From NCBI GenBank assembly GCA_018817385.1, contig JAHIUA010000085.1, positions 21,636-85,635 of the forward strand: a stretch of DNA of 64,000 bases, in the 5' to 3' direction. The position numbers and the translations under genes are program-made. The notes under the pieces are model-generated. The model was not told where the DNA came from, did no database searches, and saw only the letters and a list, made by a program, of their open reading frames with translations. How positions within the stretch are numbered: position 1 is the stretch's first letter; the number at the start of each line of letters is the position of its first letter. The DNA is from Pseudomonadota bacterium. GTDB lineage: Bacteria > Desulfobacterota > Desulfobulbia > Desulfobulbales > Desulfocapsaceae. Of the stretch, positions 12,986 to 20,842 are shown piece after piece.

Positions 12986-13534
12986 ATGCCGAATCGACAA
13001 TACAATAGACGAAATCTGATCGGAAACTCGATCAAGCTCATCACTGGAGTCGCCCTTCTTGCGCCAACCCTTTCCCTGGCCAGGAAACTCGATGTCCGCG
13101 ATCTCTCCTTTTATCATACCCATACCGGAAAGGAACTTGATGTTACCTATAAGATAGCCGGCAGATATGACCCTACCGCTCTTAAAAAGGTGAACCGTCA
13201 TCTCCAGGATTTTCGCACCCATGAAACGCACCCCATAGACACCAAGCTCCTAGATATACTCTATAAAATAAAGACACATGCCGGTGGAGGAGTCTATGAA
13301 GTAATCTCCGGATATCGCTCTCCCAAGACCAATTCCATGCTCCGCAACAAAAGCAACGGTGTTGCCAAGCGCAGCCTGCATATGAAAGGAATGGCCATTG
13401 ATGTCCGCCTATCAGGAGTCAAAACCAAAGAACTTCGAGATATTGCCCGTTCTATGCGGGGAGGAGGTGTTGGGTATTACCCTCAATCAGATTTTATCCA
13501 TCTCGACACCGGCAAGGTTCGCACCTGGGGATGA
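12986..13534 (+). CDS. DUF882 / peptidase M15A family protein (YcbK/MepK-like murein endopeptidase)
   Basis: Tat-like N-terminus (NRRNLI), SGYRSPKTN, HMKGMAIDV, DFIHLDTG motifs. Same ycbB-ycbK adjacency as in E. coli. Confidence 0.8.
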   Translation: MPNRQYNRRNLIGNSIKLITGVALLAPTLSLARKLDVRDLSFYHTHTGKELDVTYKIAGRYDPTALKKVNRHLQDFRTHETHPIDTKLLDILYKIKTHAGGGVYEVISGYRSPKTNSMLRNKSNGVAKRSLHMKGMAIDVRLSGVKTKELRDIARSMRGGGVGYYPQSDFIHLDTGKVRTWG

Positions 13535-13839
13535 GCCCCCGGGTGCTCTATGACCCGAATTTGAGCCATTCACGTTCTTCCTTAAAGAACTGACAACTGG
13601 TCTCTCAAGGCCCCTCATAACACCGTCCCGGCTAAGAATTATCGGCTCAGCAGGCATTACCCTGAACGTCCTGTCCTCCAGTTTCTATTCTTCTCACCCC
13701 GTTTTTTTAACGCTGCTGTATGCAACTCGCGTTATCTGTAGGCATACACCCTTTCGACAAGATCTTCCTTGGTCTCATTCTGGTCGTCCTCTTAGCAGGA
13801 AAGTGAAGACCATATGGTTCAGCTGCATGTCTCTGTTGA

Positions 13840-14334
13840 TCAGTTCCTGTTCGACAGAGATGATGATATCCCGTGATCAAGGCTGAAAAGAAGGATCCGG
13901 CTTTTGCCCCGTGGACAATAATCCCCCTCGCCATACAAGTCTTTTCCGCAGCAAAGAACAAAAAAATAACCACCACCGACCGCCAGGGAAAGGTCTGTTC
14001 CTTCAGTCGGATGGGACTTTCCGTAGGAGCCGTTATTATAGCGCCTTCACTCTGGATAGGGAACATAGATCTCTCGGAGGAAGCCGCTATCGCCAAGCAT
14101 TGCGCCAAGTTTCACCTGGGAAGCTTTCTCTATATCCATCGACCTGTTGATCAAGTATCCAGGAGGCCAACCCTCCACGCTGCCAAAATCCAGATCCCCA
14201 AACAGAGAAGAAAAGAAGCTGAGCTTTCTCTGTAGGAGCAGAGGTATCCGCGAACCGAACGTTGACGCAGTCTCCTCGTCTGTTTGAGCACTGAGGGGAA
14301 CAGTTTGCCCCCTCTTCCCCATGCAGCAGGCCAT
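13840..14334 (-). pseudogene. possible decayed gene (reading frame continues through an in-frame TGA at 14047-14049)
   Basis: The 95-aa track ORF (14047..14334) continues in the same frame for another 68 codons after the TGA (...YVPYPE*RRYNNGSYGKSHPTEGTDLSLAVGGGYFF...). I could not place a recognisable family or a convincing start. Confidence 0.25.
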
Positions 14335-14545
14335 ACAAGGGACTATTTAAGCAATTATTTTCCACCTATGATTTACAAATACTTTACTGTGCCTGGGAAT
14401 TTTGTTTTTTTTAAAAAATAAATTGGCAAAATGTCCTTGAGGTATTTATTGAAAAGAGTATCCTTTATTATGGATAAAAAAATATCGTTCTCTGATCAAC
14501 TCAATGACTACAGGTTCTTCAGCTCATACATGGCAACGTGGTATT

Positions 14546-15355
14546 ATGAAAATCAAGACTGAACTTATCAACTCCATCTTTATCGTCACCTGTGAAGGAT
14601 CCCGTCTGGACGCCTCGTTTGCCCAAGATTTTCTTACTGCCATGAAGGGATTTATCCAGAAAGGTCATTTAGACATCCTCCTGGACCTGTCAGCAGTCGA
14701 TTTTGTCGACAGCACCGGACTGGGTTCCATTGTCCACTGTCTCAAGGAAATCGACTCTCGTGGTCAATTAGTCCTCTGTGGAGTCAATGAAATGGTTCTC
14801 AGTCTGCTTCAGATGACCCGCCTGGATAAAATATTTATCCAGGCCGCAGATCGCAACAAGGCCTTGACCAACCTCTCCTGGAAAAAAACGAAACGAATCG
14901 GGACAACAATTTCTGCGGTATCTGGAATTCCGCATGAAAATGAAGAAGAGGAGGCGATACTGCTTGAAATAGACAACGGAGAAATTGAAGAAGTCGCCAG
15001 CGATGAACGGAGAAGGCACCGCAGAATAAGACATCAGCAGATACTTGATGAAGAACTCGTCGCCTACTCTACCAATACGAGCACCGGAAAAACCTCCACC
15101 GGCATTATTCTCAACATCAGCCCCGGCGGCCTCCTCATGGTATCAACTTCTCACCACTCCGTTGGTGATGAACTTCTTGTCAGGAGTATCATTGGCAAAA
15201 ACTTCAAGTTAAAGGAACTCGCTGTTGTCCGCTCCTGCTATGATGGAAAATATGGCCTCGAATTTATGAAACCTGCACAAGAAACTGTAACTTTTTTACA
15301 TCAACTTACCGGAGCTGTTACCCTGGAACATGGTGATAGATCCCGTCATTTTTGA
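14546..15355 (+). CDS. STAS (anti-sigma-factor antagonist) domain fused to a C-terminal PilZ domain
   Basis: STAS: MKIKTELINSIFIVTCEGSRLD...VDFVDSTGLGSIV (conserved phospho-Ser context). PilZ: RRRHRRIR (RxxxR) ... LNISPGG (D/NxSxxG). An alternative upstream ATG exists at 14504. Confidence 0.8.
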   Translation: MKIKTELINSIFIVTCEGSRLDASFAQDFLTAMKGFIQKGHLDILLDLSAVDFVDSTGLGSIVHCLKEIDSRGQLVLCGVNEMVLSLLQMTRLDKIFIQAADRNKALTNLSWKKTKRIGTTISAVSGIPHENEEEEAILLEIDNGEIEEVASDERRRHRRIRHQQILDEELVAYSTNTSTGKTSTGIILNISPGGLLMVSTSHHSVGDELLVRSIIGKNFKLKELAVVRSCYDGKYGLEFMKPAQETVTFLHQLTGAVTLEHGDRSRHF

Positions 15356-15505
15356 GCAAATGGCTGAGCACCGGCTTATTCGCCACATTTCCCTGTATTG
15401 CGCCAGCGGAATTTGTCCCGGTCCTCAACGAGCCCTCTCTCATTTTCAATTAGAAAAAGAGGCTGTTTATTGCAATATCTTCCCTCCACACCTTGAGCAA
15501 ACGAC

Positions 15506-15931
15506 GTGATATCTCCAGGTTCATCCATCGCCTTTCGTATTCCTGCCCGACTCAACAATATATGCCTTCTTGGTATCTCCATTCGGGCCCTGTTTTTAAG
15601 CCTTGGTTTTGATAAGACCAAGGCATTTCAACTTGAACTTGCCGTGGTTGAAGCCGCCAACAACATTGTACTGCACGCCTATCAAGAGAAAAAAAATACC
15701 ATCCTCGACATGAAGCTCTCCGTCGCCACCGACAGGGTTACCTGCACCTTTGTGGATCAGGGAAAAGCGGTAGATTTTACCCAGGAACAGCCACCCCTGA
15801 GTCCCTGCGATGAAATAGAGTCGCTCGCAGAAAATAAACGTGGCGTCTCAATTATCTACGAGGTAATGGATGAGGTGAGCTACAGGCAAAAAGATCAGTA
15901 CAATATTCTCACTCTGGTAAAATATCTGTAA
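15506..15931 (+). CDS. RsbW/SpoIIAB-like anti-sigma serine kinase (HATPase_c_2)
   Basis: ELAVVEAANNIVLHAY (N-box-like), about 140 aa, GTG start. Sits between the STAS and PP2C genes. Confidence 0.7.
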   Translation: MISPGSSIAFRIPARLNNICLLGISIRALFLSLGFDKTKAFQLELAVVEAANNIVLHAYQEKKNTILDMKLSVATDRVTCTFVDQGKAVDFTQEQPPLSPCDEIESLAENKRGVSIIYEVMDEVSYRQKDQYNILTLVKYL

Positions 15932-16001
15932 GCGTTTCAGAACAATTTATCCCCCTTCCGTATCATCACGAACCACCTGTTCCACAGGATCAGATACAAA
16001 A

Positions 16002-17204
16002 ATGAACCATCCAGCTACCCTCGCCACAATCCTTGTCGTTGATGATAGTGAATCCATTAGAATTCTGGTCAGAGCCTATCTTCAGGAAGCAGAATACCGT
16101 GTCCTGGAGGCGGTGAACGGGCTCTCAGGACTGGATATCTGTCGCCGGCAGCCCCCCGATTTGATCCTGCTGGACATTTTCATGCCCGAAATGGATGGAT
16201 TTGAGCTGTGTGCCAGACTCCAAAAGGAAAAACTGTTATCCAATATTCCTGTCATCATGCTCACAGCGGTCGATAACAGCGAAACAAAGACAAGGGCCTT
16301 TACTCTCGGGGCAGTTGACTATCTCACAAAGCCATTCAATAAGGAAGAAATTCTGGCGAGAATCCGCACCCATTTAAAAATCAGCAGCCTCAACCATTCA
16401 CTCCAACAGGCAAACAGAGTGCTGCGCGCCAACCAGGAACAACTGATGCAGGGTATCCAGGCGGCGGCAGAACTGCAGAAGAATCTTCTCCCCAAACGAG
16501 TGCCCGATTGCAAGTCCCTGCGCTTTACCTCCTATTTCCGCCCCTGCCAAGGCGTTGGGGGAGATATTTATAACGTTCAGCGCCTTGACGATGAGCATCT
16601 CGCCTTTTCTATCCTTGATGTCAGTGGCCATGGCTTTCCTGCCGCCATAATGACAGCCCTTGCGACCCAGGCCCTCAGTCCGTCTGGCGGAATTGTCAAA
16701 AAAGCCAGCCTCCGCGATAGCCGCCAACACATCACTGCACCCCGAAAAGTTCTCCAGAATCTGGATCGAGAATTTCCCATAGAACGTTTCAATCTTTACA
16801 TGACCATTGCCTATCTCCTCTTGAACACTCGCAACAATACCTTCCACTATTCCTGCGCCGGTCACCCTCCTCCTCTTCACCTGAGCAACGACGGGACAAT
16901 CACTCTTCTCGATACGGGAGGTCCTCCCGCAGGGCTTGGCGGACTTGGTGGTTCATGGCTGGAAGGCCAGGGACATCTCGGCTGCGGAGAGAGAATTTTC
17001 TTTTATACTGACGGCCTCACCCAGCATACAAATGAGGAAAAGGAACTCTACTCCCAGGATCGTCTCATTGACTCAATAAGGAAAAGTCGTGACCTTTCTT
17101 TGCAGGCCGCGGTTCAGAATATCATAGGGGAGTTAAAACAATTTGGCAATCAGGCTGAACCTGATGACGACATCACCCTGCTGGCCGTGGAACGGCTGGA
17201 ATAG
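16002..17204 (+). CDS. response-regulator receiver fused to PP2C/SpoIIE phosphatase (RsbU-like)
   Basis: REC: ILVVDDSE...LILLDIFMPEMDG...TKPF. PP2C: GGDIYNV, ILDVSGHG, FYTDGL, DDITLLAV. Confidence 0.85.
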   Translation: MNHPATLATILVVDDSESIRILVRAYLQEAEYRVLEAVNGLSGLDICRRQPPDLILLDIFMPEMDGFELCARLQKEKLLSNIPVIMLTAVDNSETKTRAFTLGAVDYLTKPFNKEEILARIRTHLKISSLNHSLQQANRVLRANQEQLMQGIQAAAELQKNLLPKRVPDCKSLRFTSYFRPCQGVGGDIYNVQRLDDEHLAFSILDVSGHGFPAAIMTALATQALSPSGGIVKKASLRDSRQHITAPRKVLQNLDREFPIERFNLYMTIAYLLLNTRNNTFHYSCAGHPPPLHLSNDGTITLLDTGGPPAGLGGLGGSWLEGQGHLGCGERIFFYTDGLTQHTNEEKELYSQDRLIDSIRKSRDLSLQAAVQNIIGELKQFGNQAEPDDDITLLAVERLE

Positions 17205-17232
17205 TAGCTGAAAAGGGATACGAAACTGACTG

Positions 17233-17277
17233 TTTTCCCCCCTGACAGGAGTGTTTACCGGGATCAAGGGGGAAAAA
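17233..17277. terminator. possible bidirectional hairpin between convergent genes
   Basis: TTTTCCCCC / GGGGGAAAA 9-bp stem flanked by T/A runs. The ~25-nt loop is long for an intrinsic terminator. Confidence 0.35.
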
Positions 17278-17317
17278 CCAACAGGCCTGGAGGCAGCTCA
17301 TTTTCTCTCAACCTCTT

Positions 17318-18301
17318 TTAACGAAGAGATATCTCCGCATCTCGAGCAGTCTCAGCAATATGAGAGACATAAATTTGAACAAAGGCAGGGTCCTCACCCA
17401 GACCTTTGCTCACCGGAATCACCTCAAACCCTTCTTTTTTCAAGACAGAAAGCCAGGAACCTTCTCCAGGACCTGCCATATCATTCATGACATGATCCCC
17501 TGCCACCACCATAAAGGGTTTCAAGAGCACACGATTCACCCCGGCCTGCTGCAACTGGCTGCGGACATCCTCCAGGCCGGGAAAGCCTTCCACGGTACCA
17601 ATGAGTGTCAGGACATCGGGATAGAGCTCACGCATTCGGGCAGCGAATTCCAGGTAGGGTCCTCCTGAAGGAAAATGATCATTACCATGCCCCATGTACA
17701 CCAGGGCAGCCTCTTCTTTCCTCGCCAGCTCAGCATCAGCAATCAAGGCCTTGGCCGCCTGGCGCACGTCTTTGGCGTAGGAATGGGTAGTACCGAACGT
17801 ACCCAGGGCCGGTCTGCCGACCACCAGATGTTGAAAGGGTTTGTGCCTGGCCTTGATAGTCTTGATTGAAACGAGTCCCTCCACATAGGAACAGAGATCC
17901 AGGAATTCTTCCGCCGGGGCAATATGGGTGGACTGGACAATAATTGAGTCAATCCCTTGATCCTGCAGCCCGGCAATGGTGGCCAGAGGCCCCTGGATTT
18001 GAAAAATATCTTCCGGAATCTGCGGATGGAGCTGCCGGTACGCCTGATCAACACTCCGTTCCTGCCAAATTCCACGAATGATATTGGAGGTAAAGGCCAT
18101 CCGCACCGGGGTCTCCGGATAAGCCTTCTCCACGGCCTCGCGAATATTGAGCAGACTCTGCAATGCCGGCTCAACTGTGGTTCCGAACATGGCCAGAACA
18201 ATTCCATTGGCTTGGGCCGTTTTTCGCTCTGCAGCCGCCAGGGGATGAGTGACAACAAAGGTGAGAAAAAGAATCAAGAAAATCAGAGAACTGCGTTTCA
18301 T
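17318..18301 (-). CDS. cbiK: sirohydrochlorin cobaltochelatase CbiK with signal peptide (periplasmic CbiKP-type)
   Basis: MKRSSLIFLILFLTFVVTHPLAAA signal. LAMFGTT, MAFTSNII, GHGNDH and VVAGDHVMNDMAG are CbiK class II chelatase motifs. Confidence 0.85.
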   Translation of the reverse strand: MKRSSLIFLILFLTFVVTHPLAAAERKTAQANGIVLAMFGTTVEPALQSLLNIREAVEKAYPETPVRMAFTSNIIRGIWQERSVDQAYRQLHPQIPEDIFQIQGPLATIAGLQDQGIDSIIVQSTHIAPAEEFLDLCSYVEGLVSIKTIKARHKPFQHLVVGRPALGTFGTTHSYAKDVRQAAKALIADAELARKEEAALVYMGHGNDHFPSGGPYLEFAARMRELYPDVLTLIGTVEGFPGLEDVRSQLQQAGVNRVLLKPFMVVAGDHVMNDMAGPGEGSWLSVLKKEGFEVIPVSKGLGEDPAFVQIYVSHIAETARDAEISLR

Positions 18302-18449
18302 GGGAAGATGCTCCTAGACTTGAGATCCGGAAATAAAACTCCTGGATCAATTACTATTGATCCGGGATATCCCTGTAAATCCCAGAAAGGTTGCTGTCAT
18401 CTACTCTTCCGGAGCAGACAACCATGATTCAGACAGGTCTTCTGACTCC

Positions 18450-18630
18450 CGGATCAATCCATTACCGCGCCTTCCCATCTAACAGGTAGACAGTGACTTT
18501 GGGATACCTTGAAACATCCTGATTCTTCAAGATATCCTCTGTGCGGAAACAGTCCCCGGTTACAGCGGCGGGCCCGTCCCGGAATGACACCGGGTTCCCT
18601 ATTAAGCCTTGTTACAGGCATCTGAAACAG
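18450..18630 (-). promoter_or_regulatory. cobalamin (B12) riboswitch in the cbiK leader
   Basis: The minus strand reads ...GGCTTAATAGGGAACCCGGTGTCATTCCGGGACGGGCCCGCCGCTGTAACCGGGGAC..., then a B12-box-like AGTCACTGTCTACCTGTT (18481-18498 on +), then GATGGGAAGGCGCGG. Boundaries are approximate. Confidence 0.85.
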
Positions 18631-18888
18631 GAATAAAACTACCGCCAACTCTCTGCTGGGTCAATATTTTTTTCCAAATCCTTTCAAAAGGATGGGTGAC
18701 GCAAGATCAAGGGCCATGGCCGGGGAGAGGAAAAAAGAAACCATAAAGACAAAAAGGCAATTTAAAGATGATAAAAATTCTTTGCTTGCGTATGATGGAC
18801 AGACTGGAGCAATAGAGTCCCCAATGATGACCTCGTGTCCTTTCAGAATCAAGCCACCACCCTACCAAAACCTCACGACTTCTCCAAA

Positions 18889-19785: not shown

Positions 19786-19824
19786 AAAAAAATCAACTCT
19801 CATCCATATCAACAAGGCCAAAGC

Positions 19825-20842
19825 ATGAAACTGATCGATTTGAGAAGCGACACCGTCACCAGGCCCTGCACTGCTATGCGTTCTGCCATGGCCCAGGCAG
19901 ACGTTGGTGATGATGTCTTTGGCGAAGACCCGAGTGTCAACCACCTCGAAGAGATGGCCGCGGATATGCTAGGCTTTGAATCCACCCTTTTTGCAGCCAG
20001 CGGCACCCAGACAAATCTTCTGTCCCTGCTCTGCCACTGTGAGCGCGCGGGGACGAATACATCGTCGGCCAACAGGCCCACACCTACAGATATGAAGGGG
20101 GGGGAGCGGCGGTTCTCGGCTCCATCCAGCCACAACCGATTGAATTTGAACCCGACTCGACCTTGGATCTGGCCAAGGTGAAGCGATATATCAAACCAGA
20201 AGATTTTCATTTTGCCCGTACCCGGCTGCTCTGCCTGGAAAATACCCAGGACGGCAAAGCCTACCCATGGACTATCTGGCAGAGGCAGCCTCCTTTGCCA
20301 AGAAAGAAGGAATAGGGATCCACCTCGACGGGGCCAGGATCTTTAATGCAGCCCTGAAGCGTAAGGTGGCGGCATCAGCCATTGCCTCATGCTTCGACTC
20401 CGTGTCTCTCTGTCTCTCAAAAGGCCTTGGAGCACCTGTCGGCTCTCTACTCTATGCAAACAAGGAACTCATCCGGGAAGCCAGGAAATGGCGAAAGATG
20501 CTTGGAGGTGGCATGCGTCAGGCAGGGATAGTGGCAGCCGCAGGGATCTATGCTCTTCAGCACAACAGGCAAAGACTGGCAGAAGATCATGAAAATGCAA
20601 CTCTGCTGGCCCAGGGACGGCAAGAAAGAGATGAGATTGGTGTGGAATTTCACGAGGCCCAGACCAATATGGTCTACGCCGATTTTTCCTCCACAGCGGC
20701 CGCCCTATTGCCCGAATTTCTTCAACAGCGCGGCATTCTGGTCAGCAGCTGGGACAGGGTGCGCCTGGTAACACACTTAGATATTGCAAGGGAAGATATT
20801 TCACGGGTGGTGGAGGCCTACAATGGATTTTTCTCTGGCTGA
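19825..20842 (+). pseudogene. ltaE: low-specificity L-threonine aldolase, disrupted by two frameshifts
   Basis: Three consecutive frames carry contiguous LtaE sequence. These are [14 protein letters not shown]...LLCHCER (frame 1), [32 protein letters not shown]...LENTQDGKAYP (frame 0) and MDYLAEAASFAKKEGIGIHLDGARIFNA... (frame 2). Shifts lie at ~20047-20052 (GCGCGCGGGG tract) and ~20262-20267 (CCC run). Confidence 0.8.

What the first reader, a model, noticed from the sequence alone, without database searches (positions are those of the whole stretch)
14504..17204. Partner-switching module whose STAS antagonist is fused to a PilZ c-di-GMP domain, with a REC-PP2C phosphatase and no sigma factor
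Seen in sequence: three co-directional genes. The first is STAS (conserved DSTGLG phospho-serine context) fused C-terminally to a PilZ domain (RRRHRRIR ... LNISPGG). The second is an RsbW-like serine kinase. The third is a receiver-domain PP2C phosphatase. No sigma factor or obvious kinase target is adjacent. Established knowledge: RsbV/RsbW/RsbU-type modules switch partners via Ser phosphorylation, and in Pseudomonas the HptB-HsbR-HsbA module links to c-di-GMP through a diguanylate cyclase. Inference: here c-di-GMP could be read directly by the antagonist itself. That would integrate a phosphorelay input (REC) and a second-messenger input (PilZ) on one switch protein, with an unknown output.
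Basis: partly seen in the sequence, partly recalled or inferred. Interest (0 to 1): 0.65.

Follow-up and report, generated by a model that had tools for sequence, protein, structure and literature searches.

The report
Phospho-switch protein fused to c-di-GMP sensor
A small three-gene signalling operon in a Desulfocapsa-like sulfur bacterium encodes a switch protein that appears built to sense two signals at once, phosphorylation on a serine and the second messenger c-di-GMP; I found no published description of this domain combination, and its downstream target is unknown.

Summary
Three co-directional genes encode:
- STAS-PilZ, 14504/14546-15355. The real start is probably Met15, at 14546.
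- An RsbW-like GHKL serine kinase, 15506-15931.
- A REC-PP2C phosphatase, 16002-17204.

Pfam, an AlphaFold model and Foldseek all support a SpoIIAA-like STAS domain, a disordered acidic linker and a canonical PilZ barrel.

Across 120 homologue clusters the c-di-GMP-binding residues are essentially invariant: RxxxR in 119/120, and [D/N]xSxxG in 120/120. The phospho-serine position is Ser or Thr in 116/120.

The family is small and was seen only in Desulfocapsaceae/Desulfobulbaceae-type genomes. It has about 14 clusters at 50% identity among 1.84 billion representative proteins.

The three-gene unit recurs in about 17 distinct loci. None has a sigma factor gene among the flanking genes examined. 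Some loci have a hybrid histidine kinase with an Hpt domain, or a GGDEF cyclase, next to the unit. An orphan paralogue with a longer linker also exists.

The PilZ cassette's closest relatives outside the family are hemerythrin-PilZ proteins.

My best reading is a partner-switching module of the HsbR/HsbA or RsbY type. Its antagonist is itself a c-di-GMP receptor and probably carries the output. Ligand binding, phosphorylation and the output are all untested. This is a new variant of a known kind, of moderate interest.

The parts
14405..14545 (+). Conserved upstream stretch, a putative promoter or 5' leader of the operon
   Evidence: This is the only part of the 13535-14545 gap that is conserved at DNA level with L001 and L002 (75-87% identity). 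No Rfam family matches it, including c-di-GMP riboswitches. No convincing sigma-70 site was found. Its function is not shown.
14504..15355 (+). STAS-PilZ gene. The longest ORF starts at 14504; the probable real start is Met15 at 14546.
   Evidence: There are 120 full-length homologue clusters at 40-83% identity.
14549..14899 (+). STAS (SpoIIAA/RsbV-like) domain, residues 16-132
   Evidence: Pfam STAS 55.3 bits. TIGR00377 anti-sigma factor antagonist scores 59.4 bits against a cut-off of 53.45. Foldseek matches SpoIIAA 1th8_B (TM 0.83) and RsbV 6m36_B (TM 0.85).
14711..14713 (+). Codon of Ser70 (Ser56 from Met15), the predicted phospho-acceptor in DSTGLG
   Evidence: It aligns with the first Ser of 'FMDSSGLG' in SpoIIAA. 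That is the residue replaced in the 1tid_B variant. The position is Ser in 112 and Thr in 4 of 120 clusters.
14900..15001 (+). Acidic, predicted-disordered linker, residues 133-166
   Evidence: pLDDT is 30-46. Length varies from 27 to 89 residues across the family, with a median of about 42 in operon-linked proteins and about 70 in orphans. Leu153 is nearly invariant.
15005..15313 (+). PilZ domain with its C-terminal helix, residues 168-270
   Evidence: Pfam PilZ 22.9 bits against a cut-off of 22.5. The AlphaFold barrel has pLDDT 89-96. Foldseek matches the BcsA PilZ domain 4i86 (TM 0.68), Alg44 4rt0, 4xrn, MapZ 5xly and YcgR 5y6g.
15008..15025 (+). RRxxxR c-di-GMP-binding motif (R169, R170 ... 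R174)
   Evidence: R170 and R174 are each present in 119 of 120 clusters. R169 is Arg in 109 and Lys in 8.
15113..15130 (+). [D/N]xSxxG c-di-GMP-binding motif (N204-I-S206-P-G-G209)
   Evidence: N/D204, S206 and G209 are each present in 120 of 120 clusters.
15506..15931 (+). RsbW-like GHKL serine kinase gene (GTG start)
   Evidence: HATPase_c_2 69.4 bits. RsbW NCBIfam models score 63-68 bits, below their cut-offs of 145-155. 6m36_A RsbW matches at E 4e-14. The N-box E..NN..H and G1 DxG are conserved, but G2 is 'RG[IV]' in 15 of 15 orthologues. The clade is isolated: 68 clusters at 47% identity or more, then a drop to 36%.
16002..17204 (+). REC-PP2C phosphatase gene. REC covers residues 10-122 (16029-16367) and PP2C covers residues 196-398 (16587-17195).
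   Evidence: Response_reg 111 bits and SpoIIE 125 bits. Among 12 orthologues, D58 is conserved in 12, K110 in 11, and PP2C residues D188, D206, D337, D389 and D390 in all 12.

Best explanation
This is a chromosomal three-gene partner-switching operon of a Desulfocapsa-like bacterium.

The RsbW-like kinase phosphorylates Ser70 of the STAS domain. The REC-PP2C phosphatase removes that phosphate, and a phosphorelay acting on its receiver Asp58 controls it. In relatives the likely source is a hybrid sensor kinase with an Hpt domain encoded next door.

The switch protein is also a c-di-GMP receptor. A canonical PilZ domain is tethered to the STAS domain by a flexible acidic linker. Its RRxxxR and [D/N]xSxxG motifs bind c-di-GMP, probably as an intercalated dimer.

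The protein therefore combines two inputs. The phosphorylation state sets whether the STAS domain is held by, or released from, the kinase. c-di-GMP sets whether the PilZ cassette engages its own target.

I favour the STAS-PilZ protein itself as the carrier of the output, as HsbA and SypA are. On this view the kinase is a modifier rather than an anti-sigma factor.

What is shown: domain identities, motif conservation, gene linkage, and the lack of any sigma factor gene in the flanks examined.
What is inferred: ligand binding, phosphotransfer, the order of events and the output.
For: Domains:
- HMM hits.
- AlphaFold model with a confident STAS domain and PilZ barrel joined by a disordered linker.
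- Foldseek matches to SpoIIAA and RsbV, and to c-di-GMP-bound PilZ structures.

Selection on both input sites:
- RxxxR in 119/120 clusters.
- [D/N]xSxxG in 120/120 clusters.
- Ser or Thr at the phospho-site in 116/120 clusters.
- The phospho-site is Ser in 74/74 clusters of the two classes whose nearest sequence with known context has the kinase next door.

Phosphatase competence: receiver D58 and the PP2C Asp residues are conserved in 12/12 orthologues.

Linkage: the three-gene unit is present in about 17 distinct loci at 47-82% identity, and the flanks differ.

Phosphorelay input: a hybrid HisKA-HATPase-REC-Hpt kinase lies directly upstream in L084 and L169, and a related one lies divergently in L021.

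c-di-GMP context:
- A dCache-HAMP-GGDEF gene lies beside the unit in L085.
- REC-PAS-GGDEF-EAL or GGDEF genes lie near the orphan paralogues in L016 and L083.

Output carried by STAS-PilZ:
- No sigma factor domain in any flank gene examined.
- Orphan paralogues lack an adjacent kinase or phosphatase.
- L084 has lost the kinase gene but keeps STAS-PilZ and REC-PP2C.
- The same PilZ cassette is joined to a hemerythrin sensor domain, or stands alone, in other proteins. That suggests a self-contained effector module.

Precedent: HsbA switches between HsbR, FlgM and the cyclase HsbD according to phosphorylation of Ser56 (PMC5085249).
Against: - Nothing here measures c-di-GMP binding, phosphorylation or any interaction.
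- The window protein's own PilZ score only just clears the Pfam cut-off (22.9 against 22.5).
- A sequence-only PDB search with the PilZ part found no PilZ structure.
- The kinase's G2 ATP-lid motif is degenerate: RG[IV] instead of GxG in all 15 orthologues. It might bind the STAS domain without phosphorylating it.
- The linker is long, disordered and variable (27-89 residues). That argues against tight allosteric coupling between the two domains, so the two inputs may act independently rather than as a gate.
- No candidate target was found in conserved gene neighbourhoods.
- A sigma factor encoded elsewhere cannot be excluded. In the window, no histidine kinase or Hpt protein lies next to the operon.
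Confidence: 0.55

Rival explanations
1. This is a classical anti-sigma module. The RsbW-like protein sequesters a sigma factor encoded elsewhere in the genome. Unphosphorylated STAS-PilZ releases it, and c-di-GMP modulates how well STAS-PilZ competes for or is phosphorylated by the kinase. The output is then transcriptional.
For: The best family and structure matches of the kinase are anti-sigma-B RsbW and anti-sigma-F SpoIIAB. The STAS domain passes the TIGR00377 anti-sigma factor antagonist superfamily cut-off. From general knowledge, several partner-switching systems have their sigma gene at another locus, for example in Chlamydia and mycobacteria.
Against: No sigma-factor domain was found in the flank genes examined, in about 25 related loci or in the window. 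The RsbW equivalog models are far below their cut-offs (63-68 bits against 145-155). L084 keeps STAS-PilZ and REC-PP2C without the kinase. Orphan paralogues and hemerythrin-PilZ relatives point to a function of the PilZ cassette that does not depend on the kinase.
Confidence: 0.3
2. The PilZ domain does not bind c-di-GMP. It serves only as a protein-protein adaptor, like the non-binding PilZ proteins of Xanthomonas and Pseudomonas. The module is then an ordinary phospho-switch with an extra docking domain.
For: The Pfam score of the window protein is marginal. 16 of 120 relatives have no precomputed PilZ hit. No PilZ structure was found by sequence alone.
Against: Non-binding PilZ domains lack RxxxR and [D/N]xSxxG (established knowledge; see the review 10.1101/814665). 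Here both motifs are invariant in 119-120 of 120 clusters. The fold matches ligand-bound PilZ structures.
Confidence: 0.1
3. STAS-PilZ works with the REC-PP2C protein as a cofactor pair of the RssB/RssC type, delivering a target to proteolysis or to another machine. The phosphatase fold would serve mainly as a scaffold and the kinase would be accessory.
For: The best NCBIfam hit of the REC-PP2C is the Pseudomonas RssB model (142 bits). The L084 variant consists only of a hybrid kinase, STAS-PilZ and REC-PP2C. That Pseudomonas RssB is encoded next to a STAS protein is recalled from memory and was not tested here.
Against: The RssB score of 142 bits is far below the equivalog cut-off of 700. All PP2C metal-binding Asp residues are invariant, which argues for real catalysis. 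The kinase is present in about 19 of about 20 operon-type loci.
Confidence: 0.05

Closest known systems
Pseudomonas aeruginosa HptB-HsbR-HsbA pathway with the diguanylate cyclase HsbD (PMC5085249)
   Same: Both have a receiver-controlled PP2C phosphatase and an RsbW-like kinase acting on one STAS protein at a Ser (Ser56 in HsbA; Ser56 here when counted from Met15). Neither has a cognate sigma gene in the module. Input comes through hybrid kinases and an Hpt domain, which lies adjacent in L084 and L169. Both are linked to c-di-GMP signalling, and in both the STAS protein itself selects the downstream partners.
   Different: HsbR is one polypeptide (REC-PP2C-kinase). Here the kinase and REC-PP2C are separate genes. 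HsbA is a single-domain STAS protein that influences c-di-GMP synthesis by binding HsbD. Here the STAS protein carries a PilZ receptor, so c-di-GMP would be an input rather than, or as well as, an output. The window has no flagellar or FlgM context.
Bacillus cereus RsbK-RsbY-RsbV-RsbW-sigma B, and B. subtilis RsbU/RsbV/RsbW and SpoIIE/SpoIIAA/SpoIIAB (from established knowledge)
   Same: The three activities are the same: a STAS antagonist with a DSxGLG serine, a GHKL kinase and a PP2C phosphatase. RsbY is also a REC-PP2C fed by a hybrid kinase. Structural similarity to SpoIIAA, RsbV and RsbW was confirmed.
   Different: Those modules sit in operons with their sigma factor, and their antagonists are single-domain proteins. 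Here no sigma gene is nearby, the antagonist has a PilZ domain, and the kinase's G2 box is atypical. The equivalog models for RsbW, SpoIIAB and SpoIIAA are not met.
Canonical single-function PilZ adaptors and two-domain PilZ receptors (MapZ/PA4608, Alg44, BcsA, YcgR; review 10.1101/814665)
   Same: The beta-barrel with a C-terminal helix is shared, as are the RxxxR and [D/N]xSxxG motifs at the N-terminal edge of the barrel. PilZ commonly acts as a ligand-dependent protein-binding adaptor.
   Different: [quoted passage not shown] Full-text searches for STAS together with PilZ found no description of the fusion.
Hemerythrin-PilZ proteins (P0137, P0138, P0145), uncharacterised
   Same: They are the closest relatives of the PilZ cassette outside the family. 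They share the motif-bearing segment, the barrel and the C-terminal helix.
   Different: Their N-terminal input domain is a hemerythrin (a likely O2, NO or iron sensor) instead of a phosphorylatable STAS domain. No kinase or phosphatase partners are adjacent.

Membership tests
Partner-switching module (RsbV/RsbW/RsbU type) | STAS antagonist with a conserved phosphorylatable Ser in the DSxGLG loop | tested here: met
   STAS 55.3 bits. TIGR00377 scores 59.4 against a cut-off of 53.45. The Ser aligns with the SpoIIAA phospho-Ser. The position is Ser or Thr in 116/120 clusters.
Partner-switching module (RsbV/RsbW/RsbU type) | GHKL serine kinase with intact N, G1 and G2 boxes | tested here: inconclusive
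   HATPase_c_2 69.4 bits. The N-box E..NN..H and G1 DxG are conserved, but G2 reads RG[IV] instead of GxG in 15/15 orthologues.
Partner-switching module (RsbV/RsbW/RsbU type) | PP2C phosphatase with metal-binding Asp residues | tested here: met
   SpoIIE 124.7 bits. D188, D206, D337, D389 and D390 are conserved in 12/12 orthologues.
Partner-switching module (RsbV/RsbW/RsbU type) | Conserved genetic linkage of the three components | tested here: met
   About 17 distinct loci have the same gene order and different flanks.
Partner-switching module (RsbV/RsbW/RsbU type) | A sigma factor or other partner sequestered by the kinase, encoded in or near the module | tested here: not met
   No sigma-factor domain in the flank genes examined, in the window or in related loci. 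A partner encoded elsewhere cannot be tested here.
Partner-switching module (RsbV/RsbW/RsbU type) | Demonstrated Ser phosphorylation and dephosphorylation, and a change of partner | not testable with these tools
   Needs biochemistry.
Canonical c-di-GMP-binding PilZ domain (PF07238) | Match to the family model at the curated threshold | tested here: met
   22.9 bits against 22.5, which is marginal. 104/120 relatives carry a precomputed PF07238 hit. Relatives score up to 38 bits.
Canonical c-di-GMP-binding PilZ domain (PF07238) | RxxxR motif just before the barrel | tested here: met
   R170 and R174 are each present in 119/120 clusters.
Canonical c-di-GMP-binding PilZ domain (PF07238) | [D/N]xSxxG motif | tested here: met
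   N/D204, S206 and G209 are each present in 120/120 clusters.
Canonical c-di-GMP-binding PilZ domain (PF07238) | Beta-barrel followed by a C-terminal helix | tested here: met
   The AlphaFold model has strands over 185-254 and a helix at 259-270, with pLDDT 89-96. Foldseek matches 4i86, 4rt0, 4xrn, 5xly and 5y6g. This is a predicted structure only.
Canonical c-di-GMP-binding PilZ domain (PF07238) | Measured c-di-GMP binding | not testable with these tools
   Needs ITC, DRaCALA or MST.
HptB-HsbR-HsbA type system | REC-PP2C-kinase on one polypeptide | tested here: not met
   The kinase (15506-15931) and REC-PP2C (16002-17204) are separate genes, with the kinase first.
HptB-HsbR-HsbA type system | Hpt-mediated phosphorelay input | tested here: inconclusive
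   No Hpt or hybrid kinase lies next to the operon in the window. A hybrid kinase with an Hpt domain lies directly upstream in L084 and L169.
Pseudomonas RssB (NF045505) / RsbW (TIGR01924, NF003144) / SpoIIAA (TIGR02886) equivalogs | Score at or above the curated equivalog cut-off | tested here: not met
   142 against 700, 63-68 against 145-155, and 42 against 115.

The most novel reading that the evidence does not exclude
The STAS-PilZ protein is a true coincidence detector. Its partner choice requires a particular combination of serine phosphorylation state, set by a phosphorelay through REC-PP2C, and c-di-GMP occupancy of its own PilZ domain. This would be the first partner-switching antagonist that is itself a second-messenger receptor. 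The same PilZ cassette, also joined to hemerythrin sensors, would act on a so far unknown target in sulfur-disproportionating Desulfocapsaceae.
Probability: 0.35. Interest if true: 0.7.

Novelty: new variant of a known kind. Interest (0 to 1): 0.52.

Why it matters
Partner-switching modules and c-di-GMP signalling are two of the most widespread bacterial decision circuits. Known links between them are indirect: HsbA activating the cyclase HsbD, or c-di-GMP stabilising the RsiG-sigma WhiG complex.

A STAS antagonist that binds c-di-GMP itself would place both signals on one small protein. That gives a compact, testable model of how a cell combines an environmental phosphorelay with its global second-messenger level. 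The experiments are straightforward: binding assays, Phos-tag gels and pull-downs with S70A, S70D and RxxxR mutants.

The finding also adds STAS to the list of PilZ fusion partners. It shows that the PilZ cassette is exchanged between a phospho-switch domain and a hemerythrin sensor.

Its reach is limited. The family was seen only in one small, mostly uncultured lineage, and the output is unknown.

Tried and rejected
- **c-di-GMP riboswitch or other RNA element.** I looked upstream of the operon and in the 150-bp gap between genes 1 and 2. Rfam found nothing above noise. The only Rfam hit in the window is an unrelated cobalamin riboswitch.
- **Promoter and terminator scan of 13400-17500.** There were fewer hits than in shuffled sequence, and none on the + strand.
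- **Sequence-only PDB search with the PilZ part.** No PilZ hit. The fold-level search was needed.
- **Literature.** Five searches combining STAS, anti-sigma antagonist, partner-switching and PilZ found no description of the fusion. The first 'PilZ'+'STAS' search was swamped by unrelated words.
- **Finding the output through conserved neighbours.** The flanks differ between loci: VWA protein, rhodanese, ABC transporter, NrfD, PgaA, DsrE, tRNA synthetases. This reflects a shared chromosomal position between DAHP synthase and the AspRS/HisRS genes, not a functional partner.
- **Finding an outgroup of the kinase to see what its nearest relatives pair with.** The clade is isolated: identity drops from 47% to 36%. 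No inference was possible.
- **Metagenome scan for more loci.** It added only a few new family members.
- **Hidden gene in the 970-bp gap (13535-14503).** Rejected. The ORFs there have no conserved counterpart.
- **Gene-fusion artefact.** Rejected. 120 clusters share the continuous ORF.
- **"Phospho-site varies only where no kinase is adjacent."** I first thought so. L169 shows that the P0066-like clade, which includes Thr and Glu variants, can have the kinase. I do not claim this.


Full report
**1. What is in the sequence**

Three co-directional ORFs occupy 14504-17204 on the + strand.

- **Gene 1 (283 aa).** Pfam finds STAS at 55.3 bits over residues 17-111. It finds PilZ at 22.9 bits over residues 168-263, just above the gathering score of 22.5.
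- **Gene 2 (141 aa, GTG start directly after an in-frame stop).** Pfam finds HATPase_c_2 at 69.4 bits.
- **Gene 3 (400 aa).** Pfam finds Response_reg at 111 bits and SpoIIE/PP2C at 125 bits.
- **NCBIfam.** Gene 1 falls in the anti-sigma factor antagonist superfamily (TIGR00377, 59.4 against a cut-off of 53.45). Gene 2 scores nearest to RsbW and gene 3 nearest to Pseudomonas RssB, but all equivalog cut-offs are missed by a wide margin.
- **Motifs.** Ser70 of DSTGLG (codon 14711-14713) aligns with the phospho-serine position of SpoIIAA.

In an alignment of 30 family members, 27 sequences start at the Met that corresponds to Met15. The real start is therefore probably 14546.

**2. Is the weak PilZ call real?**

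Yes, for three reasons.

- 104 of the 120 homologue clusters returned by the large protein search carry a precomputed PF07238 hit.
- An AlphaFold model built on the family alignment shows four elements:
  - a STAS fold over residues 16-132;
  - a disordered acidic linker over 133-166, with pLDDT 30-46;
  - a beta-barrel over 185-254, with pLDDT 89-96;
  - a C-terminal helix over 259-270.
- Foldseek against the PDB recovers SpoIIAA (1th8_B, TM 0.83) and RsbV (6m36_B, 0.85) for the first domain. For the second domain it recovers c-di-GMP-related PilZ structures: BcsA 4i86 (TM 0.68), Alg44 4rt0, 4xrn, MapZ 5xly and YcgR 5y6g.

Across all 120 clusters the conservation is as follows:

| Position | Conservation |
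|---|---|
| R170 and R174 (RxxxR) | each 119/120 |
| N/D204, S206, G209 ([D/N]xSxxG) | each 120/120 |
| Phospho-site (Ser70) | Ser 112, Thr 4 |
| R169 | Arg or Lys in 117 |

R169 makes the motif RRxxxR. From published PilZ structures, recalled from memory and not tested here, that form goes with binding of an intercalated c-di-GMP dimer.

**3. The enzymes**

The REC-PP2C protein keeps the following residues among 12 orthologues:

- receiver Asp58 in 12/12;
- Lys110 in 11/12;
- Ser or Thr at position 88 in 11/12;
- the PP2C metal-binding Asp residues D188, D206, D337, D389 and D390 in 12/12.

It looks like a receiver-controlled, catalytically competent phosphatase.

The kinase keeps the N-box (E..NN..H) and the D-x-G of the G1 box. 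Where RsbW has GGLGL and SpoIIAB has SGMGF, all 15 orthologues read RG[IV]. This departure is conserved across the family. It is a reason not to take kinase activity for granted.

The kinase clade is isolated. It holds 68 clusters at 47% identity or more, and the next hit is at 36%.

**4. Distribution**

A profile search of 1.84 billion representative proteins found only about 14 full-length clusters at the 50% level. No other STAS-PilZ architecture appeared among the best 150 hits, apart from one distant orphan, P0132.

In the species-level genome collection, full-length matches occur only in genomes labelled Desulfocapsa, Desulfocapsaceae, Desulfobulbaceae or Thermodesulfobacteriota, or carrying the legacy label 'Proteobacteria bacterium' (L002). 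All other hits match the STAS domain only.

The window's closest relative is a Desulfocapsa metagenome-assembled genome, at about 80% protein identity across the operon and its downstream genes.

**5. Gene context**

The order STAS-PilZ, kinase, REC-PP2C recurs in about 17 distinct loci, counting the window.

The operon usually lies between the DAHP synthase gene and the AspRS/HisRS genes, as in the window. The genes in between differ from genome to genome, so the three-gene unit is what is conserved.

No sigma-factor domain was found in any flank gene examined. The informative variants are:

- **Hybrid kinase.** A hybrid kinase (HisKA-HATPase-REC-Hpt, about 855 aa) lies directly upstream in L169 and L084. 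The two kinases are 82% identical. A related kinase lies divergently in L021.
- **Kinase loss.** L084 lacks the kinase gene.
- **Phosphatase not adjacent.** L011 and L012 lack an adjacent phosphatase.
- **Cyclases.** L085 has a dCache-HAMP-GGDEF gene next to the operon. L006 and L018 have a REC-adenylate/guanylate cyclase downstream.
- **Orphan paralogue clade.**
  - It has a longer linker (median about 70 residues against about 42) and sits alone elsewhere.
  - In one genome it is about 300 kb away on the same contig.
  - It sometimes lies near GGDEF or GGDEF-EAL genes.

**6. The PilZ cassette is shared**

After the family itself, the best matches to the PilZ half of the profile are 250-280 aa proteins with an N-terminal hemerythrin domain. 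Some 190-aa proteins have only a low-complexity N-terminus.

These relatives share the motif segment, the barrel and the C-terminal helix. One of them lies beside REC-HD-GYP, REC, FapA and a PAS hybrid kinase.

This suggests that the cassette is a self-contained, c-di-GMP-dependent effector, with different input domains attached to it.

**7. Mechanism**

- **Shown.** The parts, their conservation and their linkage.
- **Inferred from established knowledge of RsbV/RsbW/RsbU, SpoIIAA/AB/E and HptB-HsbR-HsbA (PMC5085249).**
  - The kinase phosphorylates Ser70.
  - REC-PP2C reverses this under the control of a phosphorelay.
  - The phosphorylation state decides whether the STAS domain is bound by the kinase.
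- **Inferred from PilZ biology (10.1101/814665).** c-di-GMP orders the RxxxR segment onto the barrel and creates or removes a protein-binding surface.

I favour the STAS-PilZ protein as the carrier of the output, with both signals converging on it. The reasons are that no sigma gene was found nearby, that the switch protein persists as orphans and in a kinase-less locus, and that its PilZ cassette is reused with other sensors.

The long, variable, disordered linker argues for tethering rather than rigid allostery. How strongly the two inputs are coupled is therefore open.

The main rival is a classical anti-sigma role for the kinase, with the sigma gene elsewhere. I give that about 0.3.

**8. 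Comparison and novelty**

The system works like HptB-HsbR-HsbA and like RsbK-RsbY-RsbV-RsbW. It is not a member of any curated equivalog family. It differs in two ways: the enzymes are split, and above all the antagonist is fused to PilZ.

[quoted passage not shown] Full-text searches found no paper describing the combination. Where public sources name these proteins at all, the names are generic, such as 'STAS domain-containing protein', 'anti-sigma B factor antagonist' or 'PilZ domain-containing protein'.

I rate it a new variant of a known kind. It is a real, conserved, lineage-restricted architecture with a clear and testable hypothesis. It has no experimental support and no known output.

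Noticed in passing
window 19813-20839 (+): A threonine-aldolase-like (Beta_elim_lyase) gene is split over three reading frames (19813-20046, 20046-20312, 20255-20839) compared with the intact 368-aa ORF in L001. It is either a pseudogene or carries two assembly or sequencing frameshifts.
   Followed up: partly
window 18415-18640 (-): A cobalamin riboswitch (RF00174, 103.5 bits) lies upstream of the CbiK cobalt chelatase gene at 17318-18301 (-). This is an expected arrangement.
   Followed up: no
L088 6001-6840; proteins P0137, P0138, P0145: Hemerythrin-PilZ proteins share the whole PilZ cassette of the STAS-PilZ family. One lies next to REC-HD-GYP, REC, FapA and a PAS hybrid kinase. The same c-di-GMP module seems to be combined with different sensor domains.
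   Followed up: partly
L169 235-2802; L084 5278-7848; L021 321-2591 (-): A hybrid histidine kinase (HisKA-HATPase-REC-Hpt, with dCache in L084) lies directly upstream of STAS-PilZ in two relatives, and a related one lies divergently in a third. It is the likely phosphorelay input. L084 has lost the RsbW-like gene altogether.
   Followed up: partly
L013-L016, L083, L086, L094, L096: An orphan STAS-PilZ paralogue clade has a longer linker (median about 70 residues) and no adjacent kinase or phosphatase. It occurs in the same genomes as the operon copy, about 300 kb away on one contig. A few members have Asn, Ala or Gly at the phospho-site.
   Followed up: partly
L081 7895-9554: In one relative, an extra 91-aa ORF, a second HATPase_c_2 protein (147 aa) and a TPR protein lie just upstream of the operon. 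This may be a second small switch pair.
   Followed up: no
L019 8001-8441: A 146-aa STAS-only protein is 62% identical to the STAS half of the family. It has no PilZ remnant and sits between a CHASE2 kinase, a LuxR-type regulator and a hybrid kinase, in a genome that also has a full STAS-PilZ gene (L011).
   Followed up: no
window 13535-14400: About 870 bp upstream of the operon has no conserved ORF and no DNA similarity to the related loci. Only 14405-14536 is conserved with the two closest relatives.
   Followed up: partly
L008 5411-6617 (= L099): The REC-PP2C gene of this relative is split into two overlapping frames. This is a frameshift or an assembly error.
   Followed up: no
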